Shown here in pieces: positions 36,052-59,752 of a stretch of 64,000 bases of DNA (its first letter is position 1; the number at the start of each line of letters is the position of its first letter). Origin of the DNA: a virus. The stretch lies in UHGV virus genome UHGV-1558314; one strand, 5' to 3'. A model generated the notes under the pieces. It was not told where the DNA came from. It saw only the letters and a list, made by a program, of their open reading frames with translations, and made no database searches. Position numbers and translations under genes: made by a program.

Positions 36052-36065
36052 GACATGACTTGTTA

Positions 36066-36105
36066 AATGAAAAGAGGCTCAGACAAACAATGTCTGTCTG
36101 AGCCT
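36066..36105 (-). terminator. rho-independent terminator after the SSB gene
   Basis: 12-bp stem GAGGCTCAGACA / TGTCTGAGCCTC, followed on the minus strand by TTTTCATTT. Confidence 0.55.
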
Positions 36106-36131
36106 CGAGCATCTTTGATGCGCTTGTACTG

Positions 36132-37265: not shown

Positions 37266-37337
37266 CGCAATAAATTTTTAGAAAGTTTAACAAAAAGTTT
37301 GAAATGAACTCTTCAGAAAATCTTCAGAAGTTTATTT

Positions 37338-37398
37338 GTTATTTGTATATGTATTGTGCAACATGCATATTCATATTGTATATGAATATGATACAACA
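37338..37398 (-). promoter_or_regulatory. two tandem copies of the conserved promoter motif upstream of the SSB gene
   Basis: Minus-sense TTCGCATGTTGTATCATATTCATATACAAT and ATATGCATGTTGCACAATACATATACAAAT. Confidence 0.45.
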
Positions 37399-37416
37399 TG
37401 CGAATATCATTTGCAC

Positions 37417-43696: not shown

Positions 43697-43749
43697 AGGC
43701 ATGCGCATATACGTGCGTGACAATGCTGATAACATTGTTAATGGGCTAA
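43633..43749 (+). other. short leader ORF (MKTTQLWFERQQSIAGG...) containing a G7 tract, in the +1 frame relative to downstream gene 43701..44333
   Basis: ATG at 43633; G7 at 43677-43683. The gene A frame is open from 43659 through the G tract, so a -1 shift or one extra G fuses leader and gene. Confidence 0.5.
43677..43683 (+). repeat. homopolymeric G7 tract (candidate slippage site)
   Basis: cgcgggggggctc read directly. Confidence 0.9.
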
Positions 43750-44333
43750 CTTGCTATTTGCACTGTATTGAAACAGGTCGAACACTTCAAAGAGACTTGC
43801 ACACAAGCAATAATGGTGATGGCGTCACATTTTACATAACTGGTGATGACTATAAGCAATTAGTCGGCTCAACAAAAGACGCACAATTTTATCTTATTGA
43901 CACGCCTGATGCTGCAGATATGTCTTGGTCATCTGCAGCATTTACACTTAGATATGGCGCAGATATAGTTAACAACACACTAAATGTCAATATTGAAGCG
44001 TTCAAATCATGCGAAGTAACAATAACTAACAGTGGCAATACATGCAGTTGCACCGCAATGCTTGAATCTGCATTGCCAGTGGCAATTAAACTGTCAACAA
44101 TTTGCAATACATCAGTAGCATCTAATGTCGATGTGTCAGTTAACATAGCTGCAAATAGCTTGACTGCTAATTTTAGAGTTGGCAATAGCTTATCTGCAAA
44201 ATTGACGCATGTCGGCATATGGTCTATTGCTAATGCTTCTTATGTTTCACCAATATATGAGGGTGCTATAATTGTGAAAACACTGAACGACATATTTCAC
44301 GTGTTCATAACAGATAAGACAACACTTGGCTAA
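43701..44333 (+). CDS. cassette gene A (210 aa), candidate variable fibre or receptor-binding protein
   Basis: ORF track; first plus-strand gene after the strand switch; starts 5 nt after the IR. Confidence 0.5.
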   Translation: MRIYVRDNADNIVNGLTCYLHCIETGRTLQRDLHTSNNGDGVTFYITGDDYKQLVGSTKDAQFYLIDTPDAADMSWSSAAFTLRYGADIVNNTLNVNIEAFKSCEVTITNSGNTCSCTAMLESALPVAIKLSTICNTSVASNVDVSVNIAANSLTANFRVGNSLSAKLTHVGIWSIANASYVSPIYEGAIIVKTLNDIFHVFITDKTTLG

Positions 44334-44368
44334 GTGTACATATCTTACAACATTCAAACATATAGCAT

Positions 44369-44425
44369 ATGAAAACTCCACAATTTTGGTTTGAGCGTCA
44401 ACAAGGGCTAGCGGGGGGGCTCTAA
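44369..44425 (+). other. leader ORF copy B (MKTPQFWFERQQGLAGGL, 18 aa) with G7 tract
   Basis: Diverged at nucleotide level from the IR copy but conserved as peptide. Stop immediately after the G tract, while the gene B frame opens immediately before it. Confidence 0.5.
44413..44419 (+). repeat. homopolymeric G7 tract
   Basis: gcgggggggctc read directly. Confidence 0.9.
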
Positions 44426-44462
44426 ATTAGTCTACCTGCAACTTGTTATTGGCGACGCTTCG

Positions 44463-44891
44463 TTGTACAACTTTGGCACTACTGAAACAATGGCGATACA
44501 AGGTACAATATCGCTTGACAATGTCACAGTTAACATACCAACGTCAGGCTTTCCTATCAAAATGATGGAATGCCGCGGTGGTGAAACTCATGCAATTGGT
44601 GCGTTAATGATGCCAAAAGCTTATGACTACTCAAACTTTGCTGCAAAAATTGGTTTTGGCTGCTATGCAGCAGATGGTCGTGGCACTGGCAACGTTTACA
44701 ACATCAATGTGTATGCCAACATTAACAACACAAGCCCTGGTGGTAATCCCATACTGTTAACTTCTATGGCATGGCAATATCCATTAGGCGTTGGTGATAA
44801 GCTTACATTGCCAATGTCAAATCCATCTGTCAAAGTTAACAATGGAGATATCGTGTCAATCATACTTAAGAATGCAAGGAAAGTCAGCTAA
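44463..44891 (+). CDS. cassette gene B (142 aa; start uncertain)
   Basis: ORF track uses a TTG start; in-frame ATG at 44490. The frame is open upstream to the G7 tract (RGGSKLVYLQLVIGDASLYNFGTTET...). Confidence 0.45.
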   Translation: MYNFGTTETMAIQGTISLDNVTVNIPTSGFPIKMMECRGGETHAIGALMMPKAYDYSNFAAKIGFGCYAADGRGTGNVYNINVYANINNTSPGGNPILLTSMAWQYPLGVGDKLTLPMSNPSVKVNNGDIVSIILKNARKVS

Positions 44892-44975: not shown

Positions 44976-45386
44976 CTATATGCTATAGTATGCCCTATTG
45001 ACAAGCAACACATAGTCACCACACAGTAATGCAGCGTACGACATCATGCAATCATCTTGCGGCGCACTGACATCTGCATATCCTTTTGCGTACATAACCA
45101 TGTTGTTGTGCACAAAGTCAACTTTAGCATTTGCATAAATTGCATCAGTGCCACGGTCAACTATAAATGATTCACCGCGTTCAAGCGCATTTGCATTAAT
45201 TGTCACGGTAGATGTACCAGCATTAATGCTGTACAATGTATTTGGCACAGCATTAATGCTGGTACTTGATACCGTCATAAACTTAGCAGCAAATATGCTA
45301 TCAACCAAATCACCAAATTGTGCTGAGGTGGGTTTATCTCCGGTTTCAAAATACGTTTTGAGTACCGAACGTGTTTGAACTGCCAT
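44976..45386 (-). CDS. tail-fibre-like protein (cassette gene D, 136 aa)
   Basis: N-terminal LKTYFETGDKPTSAQFGDLVDSIF resembles a motif I recall from phage tail fibre/collar proteins. Not searched. Confidence 0.45.
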   Translation of the reverse strand: MAVQTRSVLKTYFETGDKPTSAQFGDLVDSIFAAKFMTVSSTSINAVPNTLYSINAGTSTVTINANALERGESFIVDRGTDAIYANAKVDFVHNNMVMYAKGYADVSAPQDDCMMSYAALLCGDYVLLVNRAYYSI

Positions 45387-45895: not shown

Positions 45896-46549
45896 CTACA
45901 ACATATTCCAGTTTGTTATGTCATACATGTTGAAGCTGAACGCTGATGTGATGTATCCAAGAGTAGTCAAGATGTCCACACCAACTACAGGGTCATTTGC
46001 AATAAGCAAAATACAGTTAGTGACAGACGTATCGACCATATTGTCTGCTTGAAAATCATTGTGCATCAACCAGTCAGCAAAGCAGATGTCATAGTACACA
46101 GGATTGCCTGCAAATACTTTATCATTTCCAAATGCTTCTGATGGGTGCGACAATGTAGATGCAAGCAGTTGAATGTCTTCATCTGTGCAAGACGATTTAA
46201 TGTCATCAAGCACAATTGCTACACGCTGCTCATTTGTCTCTGAATCACCTCTATGAATTTCATGAATCCAAGGCAAGCATGCAAGTGCATCACCACATGT
46301 CAAATTGACATTATCAAGTGTCTCGCCTTGACCTGCGTAGCAATATAAAGTGGAGCCAGTGCCATAACGTAGACAGTCATTTATGCTGACATTATCAAGA
46401 TACACTGAACAAATTGACAATGCACCTGCACCAAGCCTGTTTGCAGGAATTGTCAACTTATATGTTGGCACGCCATTTGACTGCACTGTAATAGGCGAGC
46501 CCGCTAATAATTCACCAGTGTCAGCATCATAGCATTCGACTTCTTGCAT
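45896..46549 (-). CDS. cassette gene C (217 aa), candidate variable fibre or receptor-binding protein
   Basis: ORF track; its frame is open upstream through the IR G7 tract (TPAVNRGGALRDTIISGTINKADGSLLEAAYAT-MQEVECYD...). Confidence 0.5.
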   Translation of the reverse strand: MQEVECYDADTGELLAGSPITVQSNGVPTYKLTIPANRLGAGALSICSVYLDNVSINDCLRYGTGSTLYCYAGQGETLDNVNLTCGDALACLPWIHEIHRGDSETNEQRVAIVLDDIKSSCTDEDIQLLASTLSHPSEAFGNDKVFAGNPVYYDICFADWLMHNDFQADNMVDTSVTNCILLIANDPVVGVDILTTLGYITSAFSFNMYDITNWNML

Positions 46550-46610
46550 AGTCGCATATGCAGCTTCAAGTAGTGAACCATCTGCTTTGTTGATAGTGCC
46601 GCTGATAATA

Positions 46611-46721
46611 GTGTCACGAAGAGCCCCCCCGCGATTGACTGCTGGCGTTCAAACCAGAGTTGAGTAGTTTTCATAAGCGAAAAGACTTTTTGTATGTGAA
46701 ATTTATTGACATATTATATAT
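46611..46721. repeat. right arm of the inverted repeat (reverse complement of 43588-43696)
   Basis: Direct comparison of both arms; includes the leader ORF start (ATG at 46674, minus) and a G7 tract. Confidence 0.85.
46624..46630 (-). repeat. homopolymeric G7 tract (C7 on plus strand)
   Basis: gagcccccccgcg read directly. Confidence 0.9.
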
Positions 46722-46734
46722 CAGGCAGCAATAT

Positions 46735-46775
46735 GCACAAAAAAGAAGAGCATCGGTTAAAAACCGATGCTCTTT
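46735..46775 (-). terminator. rho-independent terminator after BACON-like gene
   Basis: Stem GAAGAGCATCGGTT / AACCGATGCTCTTT, followed on the minus strand by TTTTTTGTG. Confidence 0.55.
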
Positions 46776-46822
46776 CAAGTTCTGCTGTGAACTGTTCAAT
46801 AGTGTAATCTTGTTGTACTCGA

Positions 46823-47437
46823 TTACGATACAGTCCACGGGCAGTTTGCGGTAACCGTAACCGTAACGGCAGGAGTACCGGCCTGAGGAATCGTGATTTC
46901 CTGCTTGTCGAGTACCAGCGTCGGGTCACCAGCAGCCTGAACGATTGCAATCTGAGCAGTCTGGGCACCGTTGGCAGTTACCAAAATCGATGTCGTGCGC
47001 TCGTTAATCGTCAAGTTGGCAGGAATGTCAAGCTCAATGCTGAAAGCAAACTCGGCGTTGGCACCAGGGTCACCAGTGATTGCTACGCCATTGTTGGTTT
47101 CTACACCAGCAACTGCGTACTTTTTAGGCAGTTCGATAACAAACTCGCCGCCCTCAACGATGCTGAACGTCAGCTTCGATGAGTTAGATACACCGGTTAC
47201 GGTAAGAGTACCGCCAGCTTTAGGAGCTGACATCTCTGAGCCGTTGTCAAATGACACGAACTCAGCCTTTGCAGTCTGCTGTACATTGTACGTTGAAGGC
47301 GCTGCAATACCAGCACCCTGAACGGTTACAACACCAGTACGTGCAATACGACCAGTGTGGGCGTCAGCAGAGTTGGAAATTGAACCATTACCCGAACCAG
47401 ATGTCGGGCTAAGTTTCAACCATGCGGGTTTAGCCAT
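46823..47437 (-). CDS. BACON/Ig-like domain protein (204 aa)
   Basis: N-terminus MAKPAWLKLSPTSGSGNGSISNSADAHTGRIARTGVVTV fits the BACON pattern (W-L...SP-x-SG-x-G...R-x-G-x-VTV) and ends ...VTVTANCPWTVS. Codon usage is G/C-richer than its neighbours. Confidence 0.5.
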   Translation of the reverse strand: MAKPAWLKLSPTSGSGNGSISNSADAHTGRIARTGVVTVQGAGIAAPSTYNVQQTAKAEFVSFDNGSEMSAPKAGGTLTVTGVSNSSKLTFSIVEGGEFVIELPKKYAVAGVETNNGVAITGDPGANAEFAFSIELDIPANLTINERTTSILVTANGAQTAQIAIVQAAGDPTLVLDKQEITIPQAGTPAVTVTVTANCPWTVS

Positions 47438-47495
47438 TGTTCAAAATTGTTATTAAGTGAGTGTATATGTTTAACACAAATTCGATGATTGCTCA

Positions 47496-48095
47496 TCAAA
47501 GAATTTTCCAAGAAGCGTTTGATGTCAAATTCATTGTGATTGTCGTGCCATCATCATCAACTGTCACAGATTCTGTACTCAGCACAAGAGTTGCTGCAGC
47601 AGCTGCTTGAGTAATGCTAACATTCAATGATTTGCCACCAGGAGTTGTCACTGTCAATACAAATGATTTCTGTTCAATTGTCAAATTTTGCGGTATTGTA
47701 GCTTCAATTGACCATGCAAACTTTGCAATATATCCAGGGTCATTTGCAATTGCTGTGTCATTTGTTGCAGCGACGCCATTTGCTGTGTACGCAGTCGGAA
47801 TGCTAAGATTCGGATTTGTAGTTGCAAACTTAAGTTTTGCTGCGTTAGACTCACCAGAAACAACAATTTTTGTGGTTGCCGCAGAAACATTGTATGATGT
47901 TGTGCCAGATACAAATTCTGCAAGAGCAGCTTGGTTGATTGTTGCTTGCTTTGTAACTGTTGGTGTGGTCTTCGTTTGCACAGTCGCAATTGTGCTACGA
48001 ATGCCTCTGCCGGTATGAGCTCCTGCAGTAAATGCCAGGATATCATTACCCTCACCAGACATTGGTGAACACTGTGCCCATATAGCTTTTGCCAT
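47496..48095 (-). CDS. BACON/Ig-like domain protein (199 aa), paralog
   Basis: N-terminus MAKAIWAQCSPMSGEGNDILAFTAGAHTGRGIRSTIATV parallels 46823..47437 and 48167..52495. Confidence 0.5.
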   Translation of the reverse strand: MAKAIWAQCSPMSGEGNDILAFTAGAHTGRGIRSTIATVQTKTTPTVTKQATINQAALAEFVSGTTSYNVSAATTKIVVSGESNAAKLKFATTNPNLSIPTAYTANGVAATNDTAIANDPGYIAKFAWSIEATIPQNLTIEQKSFVLTVTTPGGKSLNVSITQAAAAATLVLSTESVTVDDDGTTITMNLTSNASWKIL

Positions 48096-48166
48096 TGTTA
48101 CTGTGCAATTTTTAATTGTTTGACATGATATTTATATGCATTGCTTAAGCAATGTTGAATTGACAT

Positions 48167-51100
48167 TTATCGAACAAGGAATGATGTACCAACAACCATA
48201 TTCGGGATTGCCAAGCCATTGCCAGACTGGCTTACTGCAACTGTGCCACTTGTGTAGCCTGACAATGCAGCAGTAATTGTTGCCGACCTGCTGTTATCTG
48301 AACCCCAGTTGTTTGCAGCTGACAATGTCGAACCGCTGATTGTGAATGCACCATTGTTCGATGAGTACGTTGGAGTAACCGCAGCATCTGATGTTGTAGA
48401 CTGACCTGTCGTGTACTTTGTGACAGTTCGACCTGTCGTAGACAATGTTGCAGTGCCACCAGCAGCCCCAAAGCTTGTAACAGTTGAGCTGACAATCAGA
48501 GTCTTCGTAGTCGAAGTCACACTGTTGGCTTCCTGTGTAGCAGTGATTGCTTTTGAGCCAGTTTGACCATTCAACGCAACCGTCATATTGACTGTAGCGG
48601 TTCTTGCAGAACCAGCAGTTGTGCCACGATTTGCAGCAGTCAATGAACCGGTTGTACTACTGTTAAGCGTAAAGCCAGTAGTTGTAGCCATACTGTATGA
48701 AATTGTACCGCCAGATGTAATAGTAGTTTTTGAACCACTTGTGTACGTTGCTGTCTGCGAGTATGCTGGCGTGCCTGTTGGAGTCTTTGTTGCACCTGCT
48801 GCAGCAAATGTTGCATATGATGTTGCTGTAGTAACTGTGACTGCGCTGTATGATACACTGTTAGCTGCTTGATAAACATCAAGAGCTTTTGTAGCAGTCT
48901 TAGACCCTTCACCAGTAGCAGTTGCAGTCAAAGTGCCAATCTTTGTACGAGCTTTGACTGTAGTGCCAAGCGATGATGCGCTGACTTTTGTGCTATACGC
49001 AATGCTAACTGAACCTGGCCTTGTGCTGCCAGACGTATATGTAATTGTCTGTGATGCACTGATGCCAGACATTGATGCAACTTCACCGCCACCAGCAGGA
49101 ATATCTGACACAGTTCCACCAGAAATTGTAACCGCGCCATATGTCGTAATTGCATTTGCAGCTTGGTACACATCGACTGCTTTTGTTCCAGATTTGCCAT
49201 TGACTGTTACTGTAACAGTAGATGTTGTAATCTTTGTGCGGGCTTTAGCAGTAGTGCCAAGTGAACTACCAGACACTGCGCCAGTAGACGTTGTTACACC
49301 AGTGCCAGACCATGATTTGCTGCCACCAGACGTAACTGTCTGTGTTGAGCCACTTGACCACATAACTGATTGACTGAATGACACTGAAGGCGTAACTGAG
49401 CCACCCTTTGCAGGAACATCGCTATAAGTCATCGAAACTGTGGGCGTACCATATGTAGCAGCATTAGCATTTTGAGATGCAGTAGCAGTCTTTGTTCCAC
49501 TGATGGCTTTTGTGCCTGCAGCATTGTATGACGCAGTAGGCGTCCATGTAGCTGTTACAGTCTTTGTGACTGTCAGCGATGTAGTTGCGCCACTTGCAGT
49601 AGTGCCTTTTGATGATGCGGTTATAGCACCAGTAGATGTATTGAGTGCAGTGAACAATCCTGATGCGCCTGGCCAACTATATGATGTTGTAGTTGACAAT
49701 GAACCATACGTAGATGCTGGCGCAGTAGTTGAAGTACTGCCACTACTAAAATGGTATGTTACTGTGTTTGCACCATTTGACGGTGTAGATGTTCCGCCAC
49801 CTGCAGCAATTGCAGGATATGACATCGAACCAACTGCAATATTGAGTGCAGTCACATAGTTGCCTGCCTGATAAATCGTGGCAGACTTGCTGGCAGATTT
49901 GCCATTCATTGTGACTTTAACAGTCAGTGTGCCTGCAGTAGTCTGGTTAGATATTGCGGTGTCTTTTGATTGCGCAGTGACTGTTGACGTATACTCAATT
50001 GTTCCGCCGCTTGTCAGTGTTTCTGTCGTCTTTTCACCAGTAGCATATGTCGTAGTTTTGACCTGCGAGTAAGTTACTGTGCCAGATTTTACAGAACCTC
50101 CGCTTGCTGCAATGATAGTTGCAGACGGCGTCAAGTTAACTGTGATATCGCTATATGTAACTGTGCCAGCAGATTGAGCTGCTTGATAAACATCTGCAGC
50201 TTTTGATGCAGACTTGCCATTGAGTGCTACTGTGACAGTCAATGTGCCAATCTTTGTTCGTGGCTTAACTGTTGTGCCAAGTGATGATGCAGTGATACCT
50301 GCTGCTGGACTGTATGAAATTGTTGCACCAGTAGTGATGTTCTGTGTTGAAGTTGATGTGTATGTTGCAGTCTGCGAATATGACACATTGCCGCTCTTAA
50401 TTGTACCACCAGTTACAGGAATATCTGCTACAGTGAAGCTTGAAATTGTAACTGCGCCATATGACACAGTGTTTGCAACTTGCTTGACTGTGCAAGAACC
50501 AGTTTTTGTAACACCGCCCTCAGTATATGAGCCAGAAATTGTAATGCTGCGTTCTGCGCCTACGACTGTTGTGCGATTTGCTGCAGTTACTGTAGCAGTC
50601 GACAATGTAAAGCCAGTTGCTGAACCGCTAAGTGTTGCAGATACTGCAGCAGATGACGTTGAGCCTGATGCATATGTGTATGACGCTGTTGAAGTGATTG
50701 TAGTTGAACCGCCACCAGCTGCCAATGTTGCAGCGCCAGGTGTCAATGTCAAGCCATTCAGCGTCTTTGAGTTTGCAGTTTGTGTTGCAGTAGCAGTTTT
50801 TGTAGCAGACTTGCCATTGATTGCTACCGTAACTGTGACAGCATTTGAAGCATCAGTAGAGCCTACATATGATGTGCCCATTGACGTTACAGTCAATGCG
50901 CCACTTGTCGTATTCAATGTCCAGCGTGACTTAGCAGTCATTGCATAAGACAATGTAGCGCCACTTGTCAATGTGCCACCTGAGCCAGCTACGCCATTCC
51001 AAGTCCAAACTTGTGAATATGAAACAGTTGGGTTTGATGTACCACCAGCAGGAGCAATGTTAGCATATGAGAATGTTCCAATGACAGGCGTTGCATAGAC

Positions 51101-52495
51101 TTTAGCACCTGCAGCTTGGTTGAACGTAATATCTTTTGATGCAGACTTACCATTTGCAGTGACTGTCAAGGTGACAACAAACCCATTACGTGCAACAGTA
51201 GAATTGTTGTTTGTCACTGTGACATTCAAGCCAGACAAGCTGTAGCCTGTTGCAGCAGTTTTGACGGCAGCAGTCCATATGCCGCCTGACGTGTTACTAT
51301 CAGTTGAGCCGCTGCTGTATGTCATTGACTGCGTAAATGTTGCAGATGCATTAGCTGCAACAGTTTGACCTGCTACTGCAAGAGCAACTGGTGTTGTCTT
51401 TGTAATGACTGGTGTGCCGTATGTAATGCTGTTGGCTGCTTGTGTAATTGATACAGTAGCAGTTGCATTGCCATATGACGCTGTGCCGCTAAATGACCGA
51501 GCATCACCGACAGTCTTACCACGATTTGCAGATGTTACAGAATTTGCAGATATTGTAAAGCCTGTTGCAGTGCCTGTAATTGTTGGCTTGACATTTGTTT
51601 CAGTAGATGTAACAACACCGTTCCATGTCACAGTGTACGTACCAGTGATGGTTGATGTTCCACCTGCTGCAGTATGACTTGTTGAATATGTGTTCAAAGC
51701 AAGTTTGTACACAACTGAACCTGCAGCTTGTGAGCATTTAACGGTCTTCGATAATTCATGACCACTTACAGTCAGTGTTGGTGTAACTGCTGCAGTTGAC
51801 GTGTTGTTCGGTGTATTGACAGTGATTGTTGCAGGACCTGTGCCAGATGCTTTTGAGACTGACCAACCTGCAGGTACGCCCGAAATTGTCCATGCAAAGT
51901 CAGGATTACAAGAAATTGCGAATGTCTTCGATTCACCCTTTGCAACAAATGACAAAGTTTCTGGTGATACTGCCAATGTTGCACTTGCACCAGCTTGATT
52001 TACTGTAAATGTTGCAGACTTGCCACCAGGCGTTGACAATGTGAAAGTGAATGCCTTTGCAGCGATTGCAGTATGTGCAGCAATCTGCACTCGTACAATG
52101 ACTTCAAATTCTGCATTGACACCAGGGTCATTGTCAAAATTTGTATTAAGCGCATAATCTTTGCTTGCAACAGTTACGCCAAGCACTGTGCCACTTGCAG
52201 TACCGCCAGTACTGCCAAGCACAAGTTTTTGTGCATTTGTGACACATTTCAATGTTGCAATAGTGCCACCATTTGACGCAATGTTTGTAGATGCAACTGT
52301 AGCTCGTATAGTTTCACCAGGAGACTCTTGCAATACTGCACAGTTTTCAGTTACTACTGGTGAACCTGTAGTTGTTTGCGCAGTAAAGCTGCCAGACCTG
52401 TTATTTCGACCAGTATGCACAGATGCTTTGACAGACAACTGTGAGTTGCCTGTGCCAACATCAGGTGTAACTGTCAACCAAGTAGGCTTTGCCAT
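48167..52495 (-). CDS. giant Ser/Thr/Gly-rich fibre or adhesin-like protein (1442 aa) with N-terminal BACON-like domain and about eight tandem Ig-like repeats
   Basis: N-terminus MAKPTWLTVTPDVGTGNSQLSVKASVHTGRNNRSGSF; repeated T[L/V]TV-x-x-NGKS-x-[ST]K...YQAAN modules of about 100 aa. Plus-strand ORFs here are antisense artefacts. Confidence 0.65.
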   Translation of the reverse strand: MAKPTWLTVTPDVGTGNSQLSVKASVHTGRNNRSGSFTAQTTTGSPVVTENCAVLQESPGETIRATVASTNIASNGGTIATLKCVTNAQKLVLGSTGGTASGTVLGVTVASKDYALNTNFDNDPGVNAEFEVIVRVQIAAHTAIAAKAFTFTLSTPGGKSATFTVNQAGASATLAVSPETLSFVAKGESKTFAISCNPDFAWTISGVPAGWSVSKASGTGPATITVNTPNNTSTAAVTPTLTVSGHELSKTVKCSQAAGSVVYKLALNTYSTSHTAAGGTSTITGTYTVTWNGVVTSTETNVKPTITGTATGFTISANSVTSANRGKTVGDARSFSGTASYGNATATVSITQAANSITYGTPVITKTTPVALAVAGQTVAANASATFTQSMTYSSGSTDSNTSGGIWTAAVKTAATGYSLSGLNVTVTNNNSTVARNGFVVTLTVTANGKSASKDITFNQAAGAKVYATPVIGTFSYANIAPAGGTSNPTVSYSQVWTWNGVAGSGGTLTSGATLSYAMTAKSRWTLNTTSGALTVTSMGTSYVGSTDASNAVTVTVAINGKSATKTATATQTANSKTLNGLTLTPGAATLAAGGGSTTITSTASYTYASGSTSSAAVSATLSGSATGFTLSTATVTAANRTTVVGAERSITISGSYTEGGVTKTGSCTVKQVANTVSYGAVTISSFTVADIPVTGGTIKSGNVSYSQTATYTSTSTQNITTGATISYSPAAGITASSLGTTVKPRTKIGTLTVTVALNGKSASKAADVYQAAQSAGTVTYSDITVNLTPSATIIAASGGSVKSGTVTYSQVKTTTYATGEKTTETLTSGGTIEYTSTVTAQSKDTAISNQTTAGTLTVKVTMNGKSASKSATIYQAGNYVTALNIAVGSMSYPAIAAGGGTSTPSNGANTVTYHFSSGSTSTTAPASTYGSLSTTTSYSWPGASGLFTALNTSTGAITASSKGTTASGATTSLTVTKTVTATWTPTASYNAAGTKAISGTKTATASQNANAATYGTPTVSMTYSDVPAKGGSVTPSVSFSQSVMWSSGSTQTVTSGGSKSWSGTGVTTSTGAVSGSSLGTTAKARTKITTSTVTVTVNGKSGTKAVDVYQAANAITTYGAVTISGGTVSDIPAGGGEVASMSGISASQTITYTSGSTRPGSVSIAYSTKVSASSLGTTVKARTKIGTLTATATGEGSKTATKALDVYQAANSVSYSAVTVTTATSYATFAAAGATKTPTGTPAYSQTATYTSGSKTTITSGGTISYSMATTTGFTLNSSTTGSLTAANRGTTAGSARTATVNMTVALNGQTGSKAITATQEANSVTSTTKTLIVSSTVTSFGAAGGTATLSTTGRTVTKYTTGQSTTSDAAVTPTYSSNNGAFTISGSTLSAANNWGSDNSRSATITAALSGYTSGTVAVSQSGNGLAIPNMVVGTSFLVR

Positions 52496-52550: not shown

Positions 52551-54479
52551 TTATCGAACATGCCAAAGAGTGTTCGACTTCACATTGACAGAGCTCTTAA
52601 AGTTATTATGACTACATAGCCAAACATGCGACTTATCAAGTTCTGCATAGGCATCTGACTTTAAGAATGCTTCAGAAGATTTGCTTGTCTGTTGCTTTGT
52701 CATTGATGCATCGCCTACAAGCATTGCAGTAGAGCCTTTGTACACTTGTTGCGCGTCATCTGCAATCAATGTAGCTTCAAACGGCTGTTGCTGCATAAGC
52801 AATGCAAGCGTAGACCTACATGCATCTTTGTCTACTCGTATATGTGTGATTTTGCCAGCAAAGCCATACAGCTGAACAATGTCTGAGTCATTTGACCAGT
52901 CATGCAAAATTGATGTAGACTTAACAACTTCTGTCAAGATTTGCATGTCATTGACTATGGTCGATGTTGACAAACTCAGTACAAGTTCAACGTCACCATT
53001 GTTAAGATTGCGTTGTCTAATGACTACGCCGTTCCAGCTCTTGCAAATCTTATCATCTACGCTTGCTAAGCTTTCGCCAGTTTTGACATCAAGCACATGT
53101 AACAAGCCAGATGACACTGCAAGCATCAATCTGCCAAGTCGCATCAGTTGCCATGATGCTGCTTGAGCTTTTGCATTGTCTTCAAGCATAAACAAGCAAC
53201 ATGCAGACCAATCTGACGTATCAAGTGATTTGACATACTCAACTGCAATGTCATTGCCAACTGCATTCATATCATAATATGCAGCAGACACTGGCACATA
53301 TTTGAACGACAGCGGTGATTCATTTACACTGACTGCTTTATGAATGAATCTACGATTAGTTTCGTACATGCTCAAGTCGACATGCATGTCATTAACAAAC
53401 ATATTGAGAGCAATGTCTTCGACTTGTTCAGTTGCAACTTTGTCTGCATCAAAAGTATCGAATGTTTTTGTGAGCTCGTCCAAATTAAGTATCTCTTTCA
53501 CATCATCAGCAACTTGCATCTTAGACTCGTCACGATATTCAGGTCGATGCTCATATGACTTCAATGTTAGCTCATAATATGGCGTTGATAACATAATGCC
53601 ATTTGGATGCTGCACAGATGCGACTTCAAGCATTCGATTTGCTATTGGCACGTAGCAATAGTCAAATTGCTGCGGCTGCTTGCCAATGCCAAATACTCGT
53701 TCATATTCTGCTTTTGGCACATGAGCTGTTATGCATTGTTCAAAATCAATGTCAAATGCGTCATATGTGACTTTGTTCGTGCTAAATTCATTGTCAACGA
53801 CCATCAACTTCAGCCACTTAACTGCGCCAGTATGAATCAAATCATATGCACGCAATGATGCAACACGATGTTCATCTGACACTTCATGACTAAACCAGAT
53901 AACAACATGACCAAGCTGACGATTCACAGCATTTACAATGTTGTCTTGCAATGCTATAGCATCTTGCATGTGCGTGTATGGATTGTACAGATGATTGTCT
54001 GATTCAATGACAATTGATGCTTGTTTTGCTGGTGCAAAAATCTCGTCAGCATATGTGACATTGTCAACAGACTCTTCATTGACTTTGATGTCTTCAAGCA
54101 CGTATGAGTCATGACGAACATTTGCTGCATCTGTCCATTGCTTGCGCCATGCAATATCAACAATCATAATGAACTTGACATACACTGGTTCGTCCGCAGT
54201 TGCATATGCAAGTACAAACTCATTCAAATGCGTTGCAGCATCATACACAGACCCAGGCTCAGACCACGTCTTGCCTACATCTACAGACCATTTGAACTGC
54301 ACATTGAGCATTGCATGACATTGCTCAGCATTGTCGACAAGCTCAATGTTATTCAATGAGCCTTTGATATCTGCAGCAAATTCAAGATACAGCGTAGAAT
54401 CTTGTCTTACGATGATGCAATCGTCATCAGCCCTTTGTGACACTGACTGCTTTGTTGATTCGTTTGATGACTTTGCCAT
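52551..54479 (-). CDS. hypothetical virion structural protein (642 aa)
   Basis: Long ORF directly upstream of the fibre genes; no confident motif. Confidence 0.45.
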   Translation of the reverse strand: MAKSSNESTKQSVSQRADDDCIIVRQDSTLYLEFAADIKGSLNNIELVDNAEQCHAMLNVQFKWSVDVGKTWSEPGSVYDAATHLNEFVLAYATADEPVYVKFIMIVDIAWRKQWTDAANVRHDSYVLEDIKVNEESVDNVTYADEIFAPAKQASIVIESDNHLYNPYTHMQDAIALQDNIVNAVNRQLGHVVIWFSHEVSDEHRVASLRAYDLIHTGAVKWLKLMVVDNEFSTNKVTYDAFDIDFEQCITAHVPKAEYERVFGIGKQPQQFDYCYVPIANRMLEVASVQHPNGIMLSTPYYELTLKSYEHRPEYRDESKMQVADDVKEILNLDELTKTFDTFDADKVATEQVEDIALNMFVNDMHVDLSMYETNRRFIHKAVSVNESPLSFKYVPVSAAYYDMNAVGNDIAVEYVKSLDTSDWSACCLFMLEDNAKAQAASWQLMRLGRLMLAVSSGLLHVLDVKTGESLASVDDKICKSWNGVVIRQRNLNNGDVELVLSLSTSTIVNDMQILTEVVKSTSILHDWSNDSDIVQLYGFAGKITHIRVDKDACRSTLALLMQQQPFEATLIADDAQQVYKGSTAMLVGDASMTKQQTSKSSEAFLKSDAYAELDKSHVWLCSHNNFKSSVNVKSNTLWHVR

Positions 54480-56440: not shown

Positions 56441-57790
56441 TTACTCTGCGATTTCCCAGATTCGTGTTCGTTTATTTGCTATGCTTCGTACAACAGCATC
56501 ATCACCTATGTGAACATCCAATGCTCGATTTGACGTCAATGTGATGTTCTTTGTGCCACCAGGCTGCTCAAATGACAAGTTAGCTTTGTCAAGTTCAAGC
56601 AATGGGGCCAAGTCCATGCTTTGGTCAATAAGCCAATCAAAGTACTCAGCGTCAATTTGTGTCGTGTCAATGTCTGCTTCAGTTACTACAAAAATGTCAT
56701 TAAGCTTGTTTGGTCTAACAGTGTCACCAATTGGCTCAAATGCAGTGCTTGACAGAAGCATTGTATGTGGACGAATGTAAATGATGTCTTCATCTACAAA
56801 TGCATTCATATCTTTGACGACAATTTGTGCTGCAGGAGTGTATGGCTTTGACGTCACAATTTCTGCATTGTCTGAGCCATACAAATACCGAGCCATGTAG
56901 GATGCAAAAACATCAATGCTGACATCTGCAAAATGAATGTGCTCTGGCAAAAAGACATCTTCAAGAATCATGACAAGATACTGCAGCTTCAGCAACAAAT
57001 CTTGATTGTCTGCCATGTTCTTGACAAATTCAGGCATGCCACAATTCAGATATTTGCCAGACGCTTCATTGTATTCATAGGTCAATTGCAGCAAATTTGT
57101 GCGTTTGTACATGCCTGCGTATGGCGAAATGTCATCTTGCAATGACAATAATGTTCTGTTGTTGCCATCAAGTGATTTGAGCACTTCATAGATGCGAACA
57201 GCTTCACTGTAGCCAAGCCAGTCTAATGCAGCATGCAACCCATTGTATGTACCAAGCTTACTGTCAATGTCATCTCGTCGTATGAGCCACTCTCTTGCTT
57301 TGCTATTCTGCAATATGAAGTCAACGACATCTTGTCGAATGTCATTCAGCATCAATGCTTTGTTGTAGTACTCAAGATAGTCATGACCCATATTAGACAT
57401 CATGACAAGCAAGCGTTCATCTGCGTCAACGACTGTAGCAGTCACATTGACATGCAATGCAATGCCATCAACGACAACTTCAATTGCACAAACATTATTG
57501 CCAACATCAACAGCGTTGAATATGATGTTTGCAATCATATCATTGTTGACAAGATGTCGAGTAGTCTTATCTACAAGCAGCAATTCATTGTTCTCGTCAA
57601 CTGCAAAGAAACTCAATGCAGATGATAGCAATCTGACTGTGCATTCAACATTGTCTGAAAACAATGATGCAATGTTATATGTGCCCTTTGACACATTGCC
57701 AAGCTCTATGTTAGCGCCGTCATAGATGCGCTTGCCGAATCTGTCAAAAATGTTTATTGCAGCCATGTTACAGTTTCTTATCGATGTCAA
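56441..57790 (-). CDS. hypothetical virion structural protein (449 aa)
   Basis: ORF track. Confidence 0.45.
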   Translation of the reverse strand: MTSIRNCNMAAINIFDRFGKRIYDGANIELGNVSKGTYNIASLFSDNVECTVRLLSSALSFFAVDENNELLLVDKTTRHLVNNDMIANIIFNAVDVGNNVCAIEVVVDGIALHVNVTATVVDADERLLVMMSNMGHDYLEYYNKALMLNDIRQDVVDFILQNSKAREWLIRRDDIDSKLGTYNGLHAALDWLGYSEAVRIYEVLKSLDGNNRTLLSLQDDISPYAGMYKRTNLLQLTYEYNEASGKYLNCGMPEFVKNMADNQDLLLKLQYLVMILEDVFLPEHIHFADVSIDVFASYMARYLYGSDNAEIVTSKPYTPAAQIVVKDMNAFVDEDIIYIRPHTMLLSSTAFEPIGDTVRPNKLNDIFVVTEADIDTTQIDAEYFDWLIDQSMDLAPLLELDKANLSFEQPGGTKNITLTSNRALDVHIGDDAVVRSIANKRTRIWEIAE

Positions 57791-58010: not shown

Positions 58011-59621
58011 TCAACATTCTACATACGAGCCATCAGTGTTTTCAACAAGCACTTTGATGCTCAAGCCCACATCTGTGCCTTGCTGACTTCTTATCAATGG
58101 CACAATGTTTTTTGATTGTGGTGCAATGTTGCCCATATTGTCAATGTGCTCGTCATTGCCAATAAACTGTACATCCACTGATTTGATGACATCAAGCTCT
58201 TCAAGTTTTGCAATTGCAGCAGAACGACTAACGAATGTCGATGCATTTGACCATGAGTCTTCTACAAATGTTTTTGCAGCATCAAGCAATTGCTGCTTGA
58301 CGTCTTCTATATTTTGCAGTACTGCGGTCTTTTTGACAAGAATGAGCATCTGATAAAATTCAAGTTGCACAGTGTCAAATTGTACATCAGTTAGCAGCAC
58401 ATAGTCACCAGTGTTTTCAATAGCATTGTTCAGATATTGTCTATCTATAGAGTCAATCGTAAATTCTGCTATTGGCAATGACCAGTAGTCATACACTATT
58501 GAGCCTGCTTTGACATACTTGTCTGCAATGTTGGGCACCAGTACAACATGAATTGTCTGAGTCTCTGTATTTGACCAGACATCAAGTATCTTATACTGGC
58601 CAAAACGTGACATGAATGCTCTGATTGAATCTGCTGAGTGCAACACAAGTGCCCTGTTAATTGAGCCTGCATGTGAACGTATCGATTCGATGTCTTCACC
58701 ATTGTAACCACCTACAATGTCTGTCAACTGTTCAATGACTAATACACCCTTTGGGCTTACAGCAGTAGTGTTTGCATCATACATGCCATTGACCCATTCA
58801 AATGTTGCATCATTGTCAATCAAAATGTTTCCTGCATAGCCCTCACATGCAGTGTATTCTACATTGACGACTGCATTTTGTGCAGGAATTTGACCAGCAG
58901 TACCATTGCCAAACACAATCTGTAGTTTGCCATCATATGACCAGCGTTCAATGTACCCCTTGCTGTATCGGTCCATTTCATCAAACCCTGCATAGCAAGT
59001 CCACAGCTCATTGCCAACTGTGACAGTCAATGAATCCTCAGACACAATCAAGTTGCGCTCTTCGATAGTGAATGTTGTCATTGACTCACCATCAGAAATA
59101 TATTGCTGAGACTTGCGTTCACCTTGTCTAACTGCGAATTCATATCGTACACCCGTCAACTCATTGTTGATGTTGAGTTGCGCAAAGTCTTGATGCATGT
59201 CGATGTAGTACATCAGCGAGTTCTCTTTGCATTTAATTGCAGCATATCGCTTAATGAACACAGTCGGGCCAAGCTCTTTAACTGCGTCATATGAAAAACT
59301 TAATGCAATTTTGCCTGATGCTGCAATGCCACCAACACATTTGTAGCATGCAAGCTGCGCAAGACCTCGTACAGATGCAGTTTGTTCTGCAGTAAGCAAG
59401 TTGTTTTCTTTTGTGCCTACTACAATTTGCGTAAAGATGAGTGACGCAAGTTCTCTGAAACTCTGAACAAGAATTCCAAAAATTGTATATTTGCCATACT
59501 GCTTCTTTGTAGAGTTCAGCAAATTCTGCAGCCAAGTATCTATAGACTGTGACACGCCTGAATATGACATTTGCATTTTCTGCATCCATGTCATATTGTC
59601 ACGAGTGTTATTTGTGCGCAT
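58011..59621 (-). CDS. hypothetical virion structural protein (about 536 aa; start reassigned)
   Basis: ORF 58011..59723 begins by translating the tandem DNA repeats (MCAYSKRLILICAHSKR...), so the start is moved to an internal Met (MRTNNTRDNMTWMQKM...). Confidence 0.4.
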   Translation of the reverse strand: MRTNNTRDNMTWMQKMQMSYSGVSQSIDTWLQNLLNSTKKQYGKYTIFGILVQSFRELASLIFTQIVVGTKENNLLTAEQTASVRGLAQLACYKCVGGIAASGKIALSFSYDAVKELGPTVFIKRYAAIKCKENSLMYYIDMHQDFAQLNINNELTGVRYEFAVRQGERKSQQYISDGESMTTFTIEERNLIVSEDSLTVTVGNELWTCYAGFDEMDRYSKGYIERWSYDGKLQIVFGNGTAGQIPAQNAVVNVEYTACEGYAGNILIDNDATFEWVNGMYDANTTAVSPKGVLVIEQLTDIVGGYNGEDIESIRSHAGSINRALVLHSADSIRAFMSRFGQYKILDVWSNTETQTIHVVLVPNIADKYVKAGSIVYDYWSLPIAEFTIDSIDRQYLNNAIENTGDYVLLTDVQFDTVQLEFYQMLILVKKTAVLQNIEDVKQQLLDAAKTFVEDSWSNASTFVSRSAAIAKLEELDVIKSVDVQFIGNDEHIDNMGNIAPQSKNIVPLIRSQQGTDVGLSIKVLVENTDGSYVEC

Positions 59622-59648
59622 ATCAGTTAATTTGTTTGTATATGTATT

Positions 59649-59722
59649 CGAATGTGCACACATGAGAATAGGTCTCTTCGAATGTGCACATATGAGAATA
59701 AGTCTCTTCGAATATGCGCACA
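59649..59722. repeat. tandem direct repeat (30-bp unit, about 2.5 copies) with TGTGCACA palindromes
   Basis: cgaatgtgcacacatgagaataggtctctt / cgaatgtgcacatatgagaataagtctctt / cgaatatgcgcaca; related atttgtgcgcatatc at 59611-59625. Confidence 0.8.
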
Positions 59723-59752
59723 AAAAGAAGAGCTTGCATATGCAAGCTCTTC
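59719..59752 (-). terminator. rho-independent terminator (26-bp perfect palindrome) followed by TTTTTGTG
   Basis: GAAGAGCTTGCATATGCAAGCTCTTC, downstream of gene 59795..60178. Confidence 0.55.

What the first reader, a model, noticed from the sequence alone, without database searches (positions are those of the whole stretch)
46823..52495. Three consecutive BACON/Ig-like genes including a 1442-aa multi-repeat fibre
All three start MAKP[T/A]W... followed by a BACON-like domain, and the largest adds about eight Ig-like repeats of roughly 100 aa with conserved NGKS...YQAAN strands. BACON domains are associated with Bacteroidetes glycan binding, so these are candidate capsid-decoration or adhesin proteins and hint at a Bacteroidetes host. 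The absence of Shine-Dalgarno sequences upstream of genes is consistent with that.
Basis: partly seen in the sequence, partly recalled or inferred. Interest (0 to 1): 0.45.

Follow-up and report, generated by a model that had tools for sequence, protein, structure and literature searches.

The report
Phage fibre genes with split BACON domains
Three neighbouring genes of a large gut-type phage encode fibre or adhesin proteins whose BACON domains are cut in half at the protein ends, so that the end of one protein and the start of the next probably snap together into one domain and link the pieces into a chain.

Summary
The three minus-strand ORFs are real: p3 48167-52495 (1442 aa), p2 47496-48095 (199 aa) and p1 46823-47437 (204 aa). 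They are paralogues. They do not carry an ordinary N-terminal BACON domain.

Each begins with only the C-terminal half of a viral BACON domain (PF19190 positions 42-93 of 94). p1, p2 and the upstream 642-aa ORF (52551-54479) end exactly after the N-terminal half. Joining a 'donor' end to an 'acceptor' start in silico gives one full-length PF19190 match across the junction.

In 85 loci, 167 of 172 donor-ending ORFs are followed within 8-58 nt by an acceptor-starting ORF. Natural single-chain fusions of the same units exist.

Best reading: BACON halves reassemble in trans (fold complementation). A T4 gp14-like neck protein (gp642), the link units (p2, p1) and a long arm (p3, 11 diverged ~100-aa beta repeats) would then join into a modular fibre or adhesin. 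This is inferred, not shown. Closure within one chain remains possible for p1 and p2.

A Bacteroidota host is supported. The Ig-like fold of the repeats is unproven. I found no description of split BACON domains in the searchable literature.

The parts
52551..54479 (-). gp642: candidate anchor protein, a T4 gp14-like neck (head-closure) protein with a long C-terminal extension
   Evidence: phrog_679 'head closure Hc2', E 7.8e-5, residues 231-368. It is 40% identical to L087 gp762, which hits PF11649 T4_neck-protein at 23 bits. 6 of 10 family members hit PF11649, best E 8.7e-6. gp642 itself does not reach Pfam E 0.01.
52554..52652 (-). Donor half-BACON (strands A-C) at the extreme C-terminus of gp642: ...AYAELDKSHVWLCSHNNFKSSVNVKSNTLWHVR*
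   Evidence: Gapless match to the p1 C-terminus, found by the motif scan. The donor HMM hit ends at the stop codon. gp642C+p3N concatenated gives PF19190 25.9 bits, profile 20-83, and PF13004 25.2 bits. The donor end is conserved in homologues P0390, P0391 and P0396-P0398.
48167..52495 (-). p3: 1442-aa terminal arm with an acceptor half only and no donor end
52328..52495 (-). p3 acceptor half-BACON (strands C'-G), residues 1-56, starting at Met1
   Evidence: PF13004 20.2 bits, residues 3-49, profile 8-57. Acceptor HMM hit. AlphaFold2 pLDDT 83-92 with four strands.
51986..52327 (-). p3 middle beta-sandwich domain (about residues 57-170) with the conserved DPG motif, shared with p1 and p2
51719..51985 (-). 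p3 complete BACON domain in one chain (about residues 171-259). Its first half is homologous to the C-termini of p1 and p2.
   Evidence: Alignment. PF19190 23.2 bits, profile 2-92 of 94, below the cut-off of 25. AlphaFold2 gives strands A, A', B, C and then C'-G.
48212..51718 (-). Eleven diverged repeats of about 100-130 aa (residues 260-1428), Thr/Ser/Ala/Gly-rich and predicted all-beta
   Evidence: Iterative HMM search. Alignment A4 with 23-59% identity to the reference copy and invariant Gly and Gln. No Pfam, PDB or BACON profile match. AlphaFold2 confidence is low.
48170..48211 (-). Conserved C-terminal peptide of p3 (GLAIPNMVVGTSFLVR)
   Evidence: The same motif ends P0130-type proteins (LGIGKMVIGSTFKVF) and P0244 (GGIGEMIVESNFFVR). 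Function unknown.
47496..48095 (-). p2: 199-aa link unit (acceptor half, middle domain, donor half)
47499..47597 (-). p2 donor half-BACON at the C-terminus (...ATLVLSTESVTVDDDGTTITMNLTSNASWKIL*)
   Evidence: p2C+p1N concatenated gives PF19190 30.5 bits, profile 7-93, against 18.7 bits (profile 42-93) for p1 alone.
46823..47437 (-). p1: 204-aa link unit (acceptor half, middle domain, donor half), a member of a very large family of about 202-aa proteins
   Evidence: More than 1150 homologues. 72 of the top 149 clusters at 50% identity are stand-alone proteins of 190-230 aa. AlphaFold2 pLDDT 96.2, pTM 0.83.
46826..46924 (-). p1 donor half-BACON at the C-terminus (...PTLVLDKQEITIPQAGTPAVTVTVTANCPWTVS*)
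   Evidence: p1C+p3N gives 33.1 bits and p1C+p1N gives 34.4 bits on PF19190.
46746..46774 (-). Intrinsic-terminator-like hairpin closing the gene block
   Evidence: 13-bp stem with 6 GC pairs and a T-run. Also visible in the sequence.

Best explanation
The block gp642-p3-p2-p1 encodes a modular, all-beta fibre or adhesin of a roughly 175-kb myovirus that most likely infects Bacteroidota.

Its BACON domains are split between polypeptides. p3, p2 and p1 start at Met1 with the C-terminal half of the beta-sandwich (strands C'-G, the 'acceptor'). gp642, p2 and p1 stop right after the N-terminal half (strands A-C, the 'donor').

Neither half can bury its hydrophobic core alone. A donor end and an acceptor start from different chains are therefore proposed to co-fold into one BACON domain. 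This is fold complementation, like donor-strand complementation in pili but with half a domain.

This would join subunits head to tail without a covalent bond. gp642 (T4 gp14-like neck protein) would be the virion anchor. p2 and p1 would be about 200-aa link units. p3 would be the distal arm, consisting of a middle domain, one intact BACON and 11 repeats, roughly 14 beta domains.

The arm presumably mediates reversible adhesion to host-cell or mucosal glycans.

Shown: the half-domain anatomy, the gene-order rule and the natural fusions. Inferred: trans assembly, the order of subunits, the neck location and the adhesin function.
For: 1. Half domains at the termini. PF19190 covers only profile positions 42-93 of 94 at the p1 N-terminus. 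p1 and p2 end where p3 continues into a complete BACON.

2. In-silico concatenation of a donor end and an acceptor start gives single PF19190 matches across the junction. Most run nearly full length (profile positions 3-8 to 92-93); the two p3-acceptor junctions stop at position 83:
- p2C+p1N, 30.5 bits, profile 7-93
- gp642C+p3N, 25.9 bits
- p1C+p3N, 33.1 bits
- L001 gp82C+gp202N, 38.7 bits
- L088 181C+P0126N, 35.2 bits

3. Spacing. The two hallmark aromatic residues are 8 residues apart across the window's junctions. In 499 intact domains the spacing is 7 (401 cases) or 8.

4. Gene order in 85 loci. 172 of 177 donor hits end within 5 aa of a stop codon. 169 of 174 acceptor hits start within 30 aa of the preceding stop. 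167 of 172 donor-ending ORFs are followed within 8-58 nt by an acceptor-starting ORF, and 167 of 169 the other way round.

5. Donor-only and acceptor-only proteins have no possible partner within their own chain:
- anchors of about 85 aa and caps of about 80 aa in crAss-like cassettes
- P0130- and P0126-type giants with an orphan acceptor half
- independent lineages L085, L087, L088 and L089

6. Rosetta-stone fusions. P0243, P0269, P0275 and P0244 carry the same units in one chain with intact BACONs between them. P0281 has an anchor-like domain fused to a unit.

7. ORFs on either side of a junction are in different frames and each downstream ORF has a conserved Met start, so they are separate polypeptides.

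8. The anchor family hits T4 gp14-type neck profiles.

9. In relative L087 the gene order gp762, 202, 200, 2284 is fully collinear with a donor-to-acceptor chain.
Against: - Trans complementation is therefore inferred only from sequence logic.
- The AlphaFold2 monomer of p1 is very confident throughout, including the C-terminal half (pLDDT 94-97, pTM 0.83). This is compatible with the two ends closing on each other within one chain. Coordinates could not be inspected.
- A p1-like protein stands alone in phage csAssE-Sib.
- The p1-type gene is last, with no downstream acceptor, both here and in L087.
- In the window the gene order (gp642, p3, p2, p1) is not collinear with a single chain.
- The 85 loci are not independent. 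There are about 21 distinct junction sequences.
- The neck assignment rests on weak profile hits. gp642 itself scores E 7.8e-5 against a PHROG family and has no Pfam or PDB hit.
Confidence: 0.6

Rival explanations
1. Closure within one chain (circular permutation). In p1 and p2 the N-terminal and C-terminal halves of the same chain fold together into one BACON next to the middle domain, giving compact stand-alone two-domain proteins. The donor/acceptor gene adjacency would then be a relic of gene fission without a role in assembly.
For: The AlphaFold2 monomer of p1 has pLDDT 96.2 and pTM 0.83, with a confident C-terminus. p1C+p1N scores 34.4 bits on PF19190. A homologue stands alone in csAssE-Sib. 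p1-type genes here and in L087 lack a downstream acceptor.
Against: - It cannot explain donor-only anchors, acceptor-only caps and giants such as p3, which keep an orphan half.
- It cannot explain proteins of 1200-1700 aa with both halves at their far ends (P0154, P0161, P0166-P0173).
- It cannot explain the near-perfect donor-to-acceptor gene order across diverged lineages.
- AlphaFold monomers are known to self-complement swapped elements (own knowledge).
- In the p1 model, DSSP calls only two short strands in the donor half. The intact p3 BACON shows four.
Confidence: 0.2
2. One reading: three ordinary proteins, each with a whole N-terminal BACON glycan-binding domain, acting independently as capsid decoration proteins.
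For: PF13004 is above its cut-off in p1. BACON/Ig-like gut-phage proteins confer adherence when displayed (PMC13370021).
Against: The longer viral BACON profile shows that only half the domain is present at the N-terminus, and the missing half lies at the C-terminus of the neighbouring gene. There is no capsid-binding element or capsid gene nearby. The neighbours are baseplate and neck genes. The BACON of BoGH5A bound no glycan.
Confidence: 0.1
3. Recoding. The ORFs are joined during translation by frameshifting, hopping or read-through into one giant protein with intact BACON domains.
For: Concatenation restores an intact domain with native spacing.
Against: Junction ORFs are in different frames and are separated by 8-71 nt. 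Each downstream ORF starts with a conserved ATG and the MAK motif at profile position 1. Any translated spacer would lengthen the C-C' loop beyond the 7-8 residues seen in intact domains.
Confidence: 0.05
4. A decayed or mis-assembled gene: one ancestral multi-BACON gene broken by mutations or sequencing errors.
For: Fused single-chain versions exist elsewhere.
Against: The same split is present in a 98%-identical p3 on 30 contigs and in a 96%-identical p1. It is also present in more than 70 clusters of about 200-aa proteins at 50% identity and in at least five architectures. The breakpoint is always the same loop.
Confidence: 0.03

Closest known systems
crAssphage-type BACON tandem-repeat proteins and single-BACON ORFs of gut phages (de Jonge et al. 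2019, PMC6949934; Pfam PF19190 'Viral BACON domain')
   Same: The same domain family, the same ecological setting (human-gut phages of Bacteroidota), proximity to tail or structural genes, and a modular, horizontally exchanged architecture.
   Different: That work describes whole domains within one ORF. It noted a 'shorter N-terminus' of phage BACONs, but not that the missing half lies at the end of the preceding gene. Here the domain is divided between polypeptides at a fixed loop.
Modular BACON/PKD/Ig-like adhesins of crAss-like and Flandersviridae-like gut phages (Nat Commun 2026, PMC13370021)
   Same: Multi-domain all-beta proteins with BACON, encoded next to structural genes in Bacteroidota phages. 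They were shown experimentally to raise epithelial adherence and gut retention when displayed on K1F. p3's repeats have homologues in contigs of about 83 kb that fit that group by size.
   Different: I could not verify that the tested proteins are members of the p1 or p3 families, because no sequences are held in the supplements. That paper does not address how the proteins attach to the virion or to each other.
Donor-strand complementation in chaperone-usher pili and strand exchange in Bacteroidia type V pili (own knowledge; CfaE/CfaB and pilin chaperones appear among the fold matches)
   Same: An incomplete Ig-like fold in one subunit is completed by a segment of the next, giving non-covalent head-to-tail polymers.
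   Different: In pili a single strand is donated. Here about four strands, half of the sandwich contributing to both sheets, would be donated. No chaperone, usher or protease is evident, and the partners are different gene products encoded in order.
T4 fibritin (wac) whiskers on the gp13/gp14 neck (own knowledge; PF11649 and phrog_679)
   Same: A fibre gene lies next to a gp14-like neck gene, downstream of baseplate genes. It is possibly a neck-attached accessory fibre.
   Different: Fibritin is a trimeric coiled coil with a foldon. p3 is all-beta and has no coiled coil, and attachment here would be by domain complementation.
T4 Hoc and other Ig-like capsid decoration proteins (the BAM model)
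   Same: Exposed Ig-like domains on a virion, proposed to bind mucin glycans.
   Different: There is no capsid-binding module and no capsid context here. The anchor looks like a neck protein.

Membership tests
BACON domain (Pfam PF13004 / PF19190 viral BACON) | Profile match at or above the curated cut-off | tested here: met
   p1 scores 34 bits on PF13004, cut-off 25. p3 scores 20.2 bits and p2 has no hit on their own. The joined halves p2C+p1N (30.5 bits), gp642C+p3N (25.9 bits) and p1C+p3N (33.1 bits) pass PF19190.
BACON domain (Pfam PF13004 / PF19190 viral BACON) | The four hallmark residues W, N, R and Q (de Jonge 2019) | tested here: met
   In the alignment of joined halves with the intact p3 BACON, N26, W31 and Q85 are invariant and R66 is present in at least 90% of sequences. 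The hallmark residues are listed in PMC6949934.
BACON domain (Pfam PF13004 / PF19190 viral BACON) | A complete beta-sandwich of about 80-95 aa within one polypeptide | tested here: not met
   The terminal segments cover only profile positions 42-93 (N-termini) or about 1-40 (C-termini) of PF19190. Only p3 residues 171-259 form a whole domain, at 23.2 bits, just under the cut-off.
BACON domain (Pfam PF13004 / PF19190 viral BACON) | Carbohydrate binding | not testable with these tools
The BACON of BoGH5A bound none of the glycans tested (cited in PMC9853417).
   Eleven repeats are confirmed. The predicted secondary structure is all beta, but pLDDT is below 50. There is no Pfam hit, no PDB sequence hit, and the profile comparison with BACON gives a probability of 3%.
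Donor-strand / fold-complementation polymers (pilus-like assembly) | Subunits with an incomplete Ig-like fold at a terminus | tested here: met
   Half-domain termini are seen in gp642, p1, p2 and p3, and in more than 160 ORFs of related loci.
Donor-strand / fold-complementation polymers (pilus-like assembly) | Completion of the fold by a neighbouring subunit (in trans) | not testable with these tools
Support is indirect: gene order, orphan halves and natural fusions.
T4 gp14-type neck (head-closure) proteins, for the anchor gp642 | Profile match to PF11649 or phrog_679 | tested here: inconclusive
   gp642 hits phrog_679 at E 7.8e-5 but has no Pfam hit at E 0.01. 6 of 10 family members hit PF11649, best E 8.7e-6, and L087 gp762 scores 23 bits against a cut-off of 25. 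There is no PDB hit.
Capsid decoration proteins (Hoc-like) | A capsid-binding module or capsid-gene context | tested here: not met
   No such domain is present. The neighbours are a baseplate wedge gene (phrog_219, 58011-59723) and a neck-like gene.

The most novel reading that the evidence does not exclude
Gut phages of Bacteroidota build accessory fibres from interchangeable gene products that are clicked together by reconstituting a split Ig-like (BACON) domain. Half a beta-sandwich at the C-terminus of one protein would pair with the other half at the N-terminus of the next. This would be a natural split-protein connector. It would allow anchors (neck protein, small crAss-type anchors, coiled-coil fibres), about 200-aa links, and distal modules (caps, glycine-rich domains, long repeat arms) to be shuffled between unrelated phages.
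Probability: 0.5. Interest if true: 0.78.

Novelty: new variant of a known kind. Interest (0 to 1): 0.62.

Why it matters
BACON-carrying proteins are the hallmark accessory proteins of the most abundant human-gut phages, and nobody knows how they sit on the virion.

If the split-domain rule holds, it has four consequences:
1. It explains why viral BACON hits look 'N-terminally truncated'.
2. It tells annotators that neighbouring small ORFs (anchors of about 85 aa, links of about 200 aa, caps of about 80 aa) are parts of one structure.
3. It predicts from sequence alone which proteins bind which.
4. It offers a natural, genetically encoded, non-covalent connector for phage display or protein engineering.

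It would also shift the presumed role of BACON in phages from glycan binding to a structural coupling.

Tried and rejected
- Megablast of 12 kb against GenBank phages found no match.
- PHROGs, Pfam and NCBIfam searches on most neighbouring ORFs found nothing useful.
- AlphaFold2 of p3 residues 1-577 left the repeat region unresolved because the alignment there was shallow. I therefore ran no fold search on that model.
- The first narrow half-domain HMMs found only the p1 family itself. They had to be re-seeded with diverse sequences.
- A search of the supplements of PMC13370021 for the sequences of the tested adhesins found none held as text.
- Profile searches against PDB sequences with the repeat alignment and with the gp642 family alignment found nothing significant.
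- Read-through or frameshift fusion was considered and rejected, on frame, spacer and conserved-Met grounds.
- Stop-codon reassignment was considered. The junction ORFs are out of frame, so it does not apply.
- Literature searches for split BACON domains or strand complementation in phage fibres returned nothing relevant.
Full report
**Observation.** The region 46823-52495 holds three consecutive minus-strand ORFs:
- p3, 48167-52495, 1442 aa
- p2, 47496-48095, 199 aa
- p1, 46823-47437, 204 aa

They are transcribed in the order p3, p2, p1. The spacers are 71 and 58 nt, and a strong terminator-like hairpin follows at 46774-46746. p1 and p2 are 38% identical over their full length (E 3e-37). Both align with residues 1-205 of p3 (E 3e-15 and 2e-21). 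p3 and p1 start MAKP[T/A]W, and p2 starts MAKAIW.

An iterative profile search finds 10 clear repeats of about 100-130 aa and one weak one between residues 260 and 1428 of p3. An alignment of the 11 copies shows 23-59% identity to the reference copy, with one invariant Gly and one invariant Gln. The repeats are not detectable as DNA tandem repeats, so they are old and not an assembly artefact. Shine-Dalgarno cores are essentially absent: 1 of 44 ORFs, the same as background.

**What the 'BACON-like domain' really is.** Pfam confirms BACON in p1: PF13004 scores 34 bits against a cut-off of 25. p3 reaches 20.2 bits and p2 has no hit. The longer viral BACON model PF19190 aligns the p1 N-terminus only to profile positions 42-93 of 94. 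The proteins therefore begin in the middle of the domain.

p1 and p2 also end abruptly (...TANCPWTVS*...TSNASWKIL*). This is exactly the point at which the homologous segment of p3 (residues 171-205) runs on into a complete BACON, residues 171-259. So each small protein has three parts: the C-terminal half of a BACON (strands C'-G, the 'acceptor'), a middle beta domain, and the N-terminal half of a BACON (strands A-C, the 'donor').

A motif scan of the window showed that the upstream 642-aa ORF (52551-54479) also ends in a donor half...LDKSHVWLCSHNNFKSSVNVKSNTLWHVR*. It aligns with the p1 end without gaps.

**Test by virtual joining.** I concatenated a donor end with an acceptor start and scanned Pfam. 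Each pair below gave a single PF19190 match spanning the junction:

| Pair | PF19190 bits | Profile positions |
|---|---|---|
| p2C+p1N | 30.5 | 7-93 |
| gp642C+p3N | 25.9 | 20-83 |
| p1C+p3N | 33.1 | 8-83 |
| p1C+p1N | 34.4 | 8-93 |
| L001 gp82C+gp202N | 38.7 | 4-92 |
| L088 181C+P0126N | 35.2 | 3-93 |
| p3 intact BACON | 23.2 | 2-92 |

For comparison, p1 alone scores 18.7 bits over profile positions 42-93. p1C+p2N gave no hit.

The joined sequences align collinearly with the intact domain and carry the hallmark W, N, R and Q residues (hallmark residues from PMC6949934). The two hallmark aromatic residues are 8 residues apart across the window's junctions (WKIL|MAKPAW, WHVR|MAKPTW). In 499 intact domains from relatives the spacing is 7 (401 cases) or 8.

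**How general it is.**
- p1 has more than 1150 homologues of about 202 aa.
- A profile search of 1.84 billion cluster representatives gives 4701 hits at E<=1e-3. Of the top 149, 72 are stand-alone proteins of 190-230 aa, and 67 of these end in the donor motif.
- I fetched 80 viral loci plus others and built donor and acceptor HMMs. 172 of 177 donor hits end within 5 residues of a stop codon. 169 of 174 acceptor hits begin within 30 residues of the preceding stop.
- 167 of 172 donor-ending ORFs are followed within 8-58 nt by an acceptor-starting ORF, and 167 of 169 the other way round.

The commonest cassette, found in crAss-like contigs, has three genes:
1. an anchor of about 85 aa ending in a donor half
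2. a link of about 202 aa with both halves
3. either a cap of about 80 aa that is little more than an acceptor half, or a protein of 450-580 aa starting with an acceptor half, in one case followed by a glycine-rich ALK_LTK_GRD domain

The loci are not independent, with about 21 distinct junction sequences. However, the rule recurs in clearly different architectures:
- cr127_1 (Crevaviridae): a 70-aa anchor followed by a 211-aa link
- L088: a 181-aa donor-ending ORF followed by a 2154-aa acceptor-starting ORF
- L089: a 656-aa coiled-coil/PEGA protein ending in a donor, followed by a 1665-aa protein with both halves
- L087: a relative of this phage with the order gp762 (donor), 202, 200, 2284 (acceptor only), 203

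Many large homologues of p3 carry an orphan acceptor half with no donor anywhere in the chain, for example P0130 and P0126. Others carry the two halves 1100-1600 residues apart, for example P0154, P0161 and P0166-P0173.

Natural single-chain fusions also exist. P0243, P0269 and P0275 have the layout acceptor half, middle domain, intact BACON, middle domain, donor half. P0244 has four units. P0281 has an unrelated N-domain fused through an intact BACON to a unit. These are Rosetta stones. They show that the donor half of one unit pairs with the acceptor half of the next in a linear string.

**Mechanism proposed.** The halves contribute strands to both sheets of the sandwich, so neither should be stable alone. 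This step is an inference from Ig-fold topology and from the strand pattern of the p3 model. I therefore propose that a donor end and an acceptor start from different chains co-fold into one BACON and couple the subunits non-covalently.

The window has three donors (gp642, p2, p1) and three acceptors (p3, p2, p1). There is one donor-only protein (gp642) and one acceptor-only protein (p3). This is what a linear chain of anchor, links and terminal arm requires. L087 is collinear with such a chain. The window's gene order is not, so the actual order here is open. Two possibilities are gp642·p3 plus a separate p2·p1 pair, or gp642·p2·p1·p3.

Junction ORFs are in different frames, and each downstream ORF begins with a conserved Met-Ala-Lys. 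This argues against read-through or frameshift fusion.

**Structure predictions.** The p1 model is very confident (pLDDT 96.2, pTM 0.83) and all-beta. Its best structural matches are generic:
- Ig-like and Calx-beta domains
- the BACON-containing BoGH5A
- pilins and their chaperones
- a phage SU10 tail surface protein

I could not inspect coordinates, so I cannot say whether the model closes the two halves within one chain. DSSP calls only two short strands in the donor half of p1. It calls four in the intact p3 BACON.

The p3(1-577) model is good for residues 1-260 (pLDDT about 83-94 for the acceptor half and middle domain, 65-89 for the intact BACON). It is poor for the repeats (below 50). 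The Ig-like nature of the repeats therefore remains a reasonable guess only. They have no Pfam, PDB or BACON profile match.

**Where on the virion.** The upstream genes include a baseplate wedge homologue (phrog_219, 58011-59723). gp642 hits phrog_679 'head closure Hc2' (E 7.8e-5). Its 40%-identical relative gp762 hits the same PHROG and also PF11649 T4_neck-protein (23 bits, cut-off 25). 6 of 10 family members hit PF11649, best E 8.7e-6.

The anchor is therefore probably a T4 gp14-like neck protein with a C-terminal extension of about 270 residues ending in the donor half. The fibre would then be a neck or collar appendage, analogous in position to T4 whiskers. This is weakly supported: there is no PDB hit, and gp642 itself fails Pfam. 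In other lineages the anchors differ, so the connector looks portable between attachment sites.

**Host and element.** The window belongs to a phage of about 175 kb. p3 occurs at 98% identity on a 176.9-kb contig, and p1 at 96% identity on a 174.6-kb IMG/VR contig. The window carries SbcCD-like, helicase, gp32-like and sigma-factor genes.

The fused metallophosphoesterase/SbcC-like protein is closest, at about 26% identity, to jumbo phages of Chryseobacterium and Tenacibaculum. p1 relatives occur in Crassvirales and in four Bacteroidales MAG bins. Together with the lack of Shine-Dalgarno motifs, a Bacteroidota host is well supported, though not proven.

**Comparison with what is known.** BACON domains in crAss-like and other gut phages, their tandem arrays and their association with tail genes are known (PMC6949934). 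A 2026 study showed that BACON/PKD/Ig-like proteins of crAss-like and Flandersviridae-like phages confer epithelial adherence when displayed on K1F (PMC13370021). The locus is therefore a member of a known kind of accessory adhesin or fibre.

The new element is the division of the domain between polypeptides at a fixed loop, with a strict donor-to-acceptor gene order. I found no description of this in the searchable literature. De Jonge et al. did note that phage BACONs have a shorter N-terminus than PF13004, which the split explains.

The closest mechanistic analogue is donor-strand complementation in pili, but here with half a domain and different gene products. The only biochemically tested BACON bound no glycan. 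This fits a structural, coupling role.

**Verdict.** The half-domain anatomy and the gene-order rule are shown. Trans complementation (confidence about 0.6), the neck location (about 0.4) and the adhesin function are inferred. The main rival, closure within one chain of the small proteins, could hold for p1 and p2 without negating trans coupling of gp642 with p3.

Noticed in passing
window 46001-52000: G+C is 0.44-0.46 across the three genes, against about 0.39-0.41 in the rest of the window. This could reflect the Thr/Ala/Gly/Ser-rich coding or horizontal acquisition of the module.
   Followed up: no
window 48170-48211 (p3 C-terminus); P0130, P0244: Acceptor-only 'terminal' proteins share a conserved C-terminal peptide: GLAIPNMVVGTSFLVR, LGIGKMVIGSTFKVF and GGIGEMIVESNFFVR. 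It could be a second docking or oligomerisation element.
   Followed up: partly
window 56441-57790 (-): A 449-aa ORF (phrog_28177) between the baseplate wedge gene and gp642 has a BACON-like segment near its C-terminus (...LSFEQPGGTKNITLTSNRALDVHIG...) that is not terminal.
   Followed up: partly
window 44976-45386 (-): A 136-aa ORF starts with a conserved-looking motif, SVLKTYFETGDKPTSAQFGDLVDSIF. It has no family hit. It might be another fibre or adaptor N-terminus.
   Followed up: no
window 43701-44891 (+): Two plus-strand ORFs (210 and 142 aa) form an island in an otherwise minus-strand window, just downstream of the fibre block. They have no family hits.
   Followed up: no
L001 9723-9971; L071, L055, L007, L079 anchors: The crAss-type anchors of about 85 aa start with MGC or MSC and carry short repeats of the type RIGxGLxV before the donor half. 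By size and position they resemble small head-fibre or tail-fibre stubs. They have no Pfam hit.
   Followed up: partly
L089 4031-6001: Here the donor-ending protein is a 656-aa coiled-coil protein with PEGA and a 'Head_fiber_dimeric' domain (PF25641, 76 bits). The connector is therefore used on quite different anchors.
   Followed up: partly
P0157-P0240 (contigs of about 83 kb): p3's repeats have many homologues in proteins of 1680-2257 aa on contigs of about 83 kb. These have a different N-terminus (MVKSKTSPNIIL...PWKEG) and a C-terminus ...PPWVSGNWSYYW.
   Followed up: no
window 17413-21339 (-): A 1308-aa fused metallophosphoesterase/SbcC-like protein (phrog_35725, E 7e-113). Its only cultured relatives are in jumbo phages of Flavobacteriia.
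   Followed up: partly
window 36029-38553 (-): A homing-endonuclease-like ORF (37417-38553, phrog_3339) lies next to a gp32-like SSB gene (36132-37265). The SSB gene overlaps a 200-aa ORF (36029-36631) in another frame.
   Followed up: no
L086 (phage csAssE-Sib) 4989-5645: A p1-family protein stands alone among opposite-strand replication genes and tRNAs. It is annotated as 'glycosyl hydrolase family 5 protein', and in cr111_1 and cr127_1 its relatives are annotated 'lipocalin-like protein'. Both names appear to be transferred from BACON-only similarity.
   Followed up: partly
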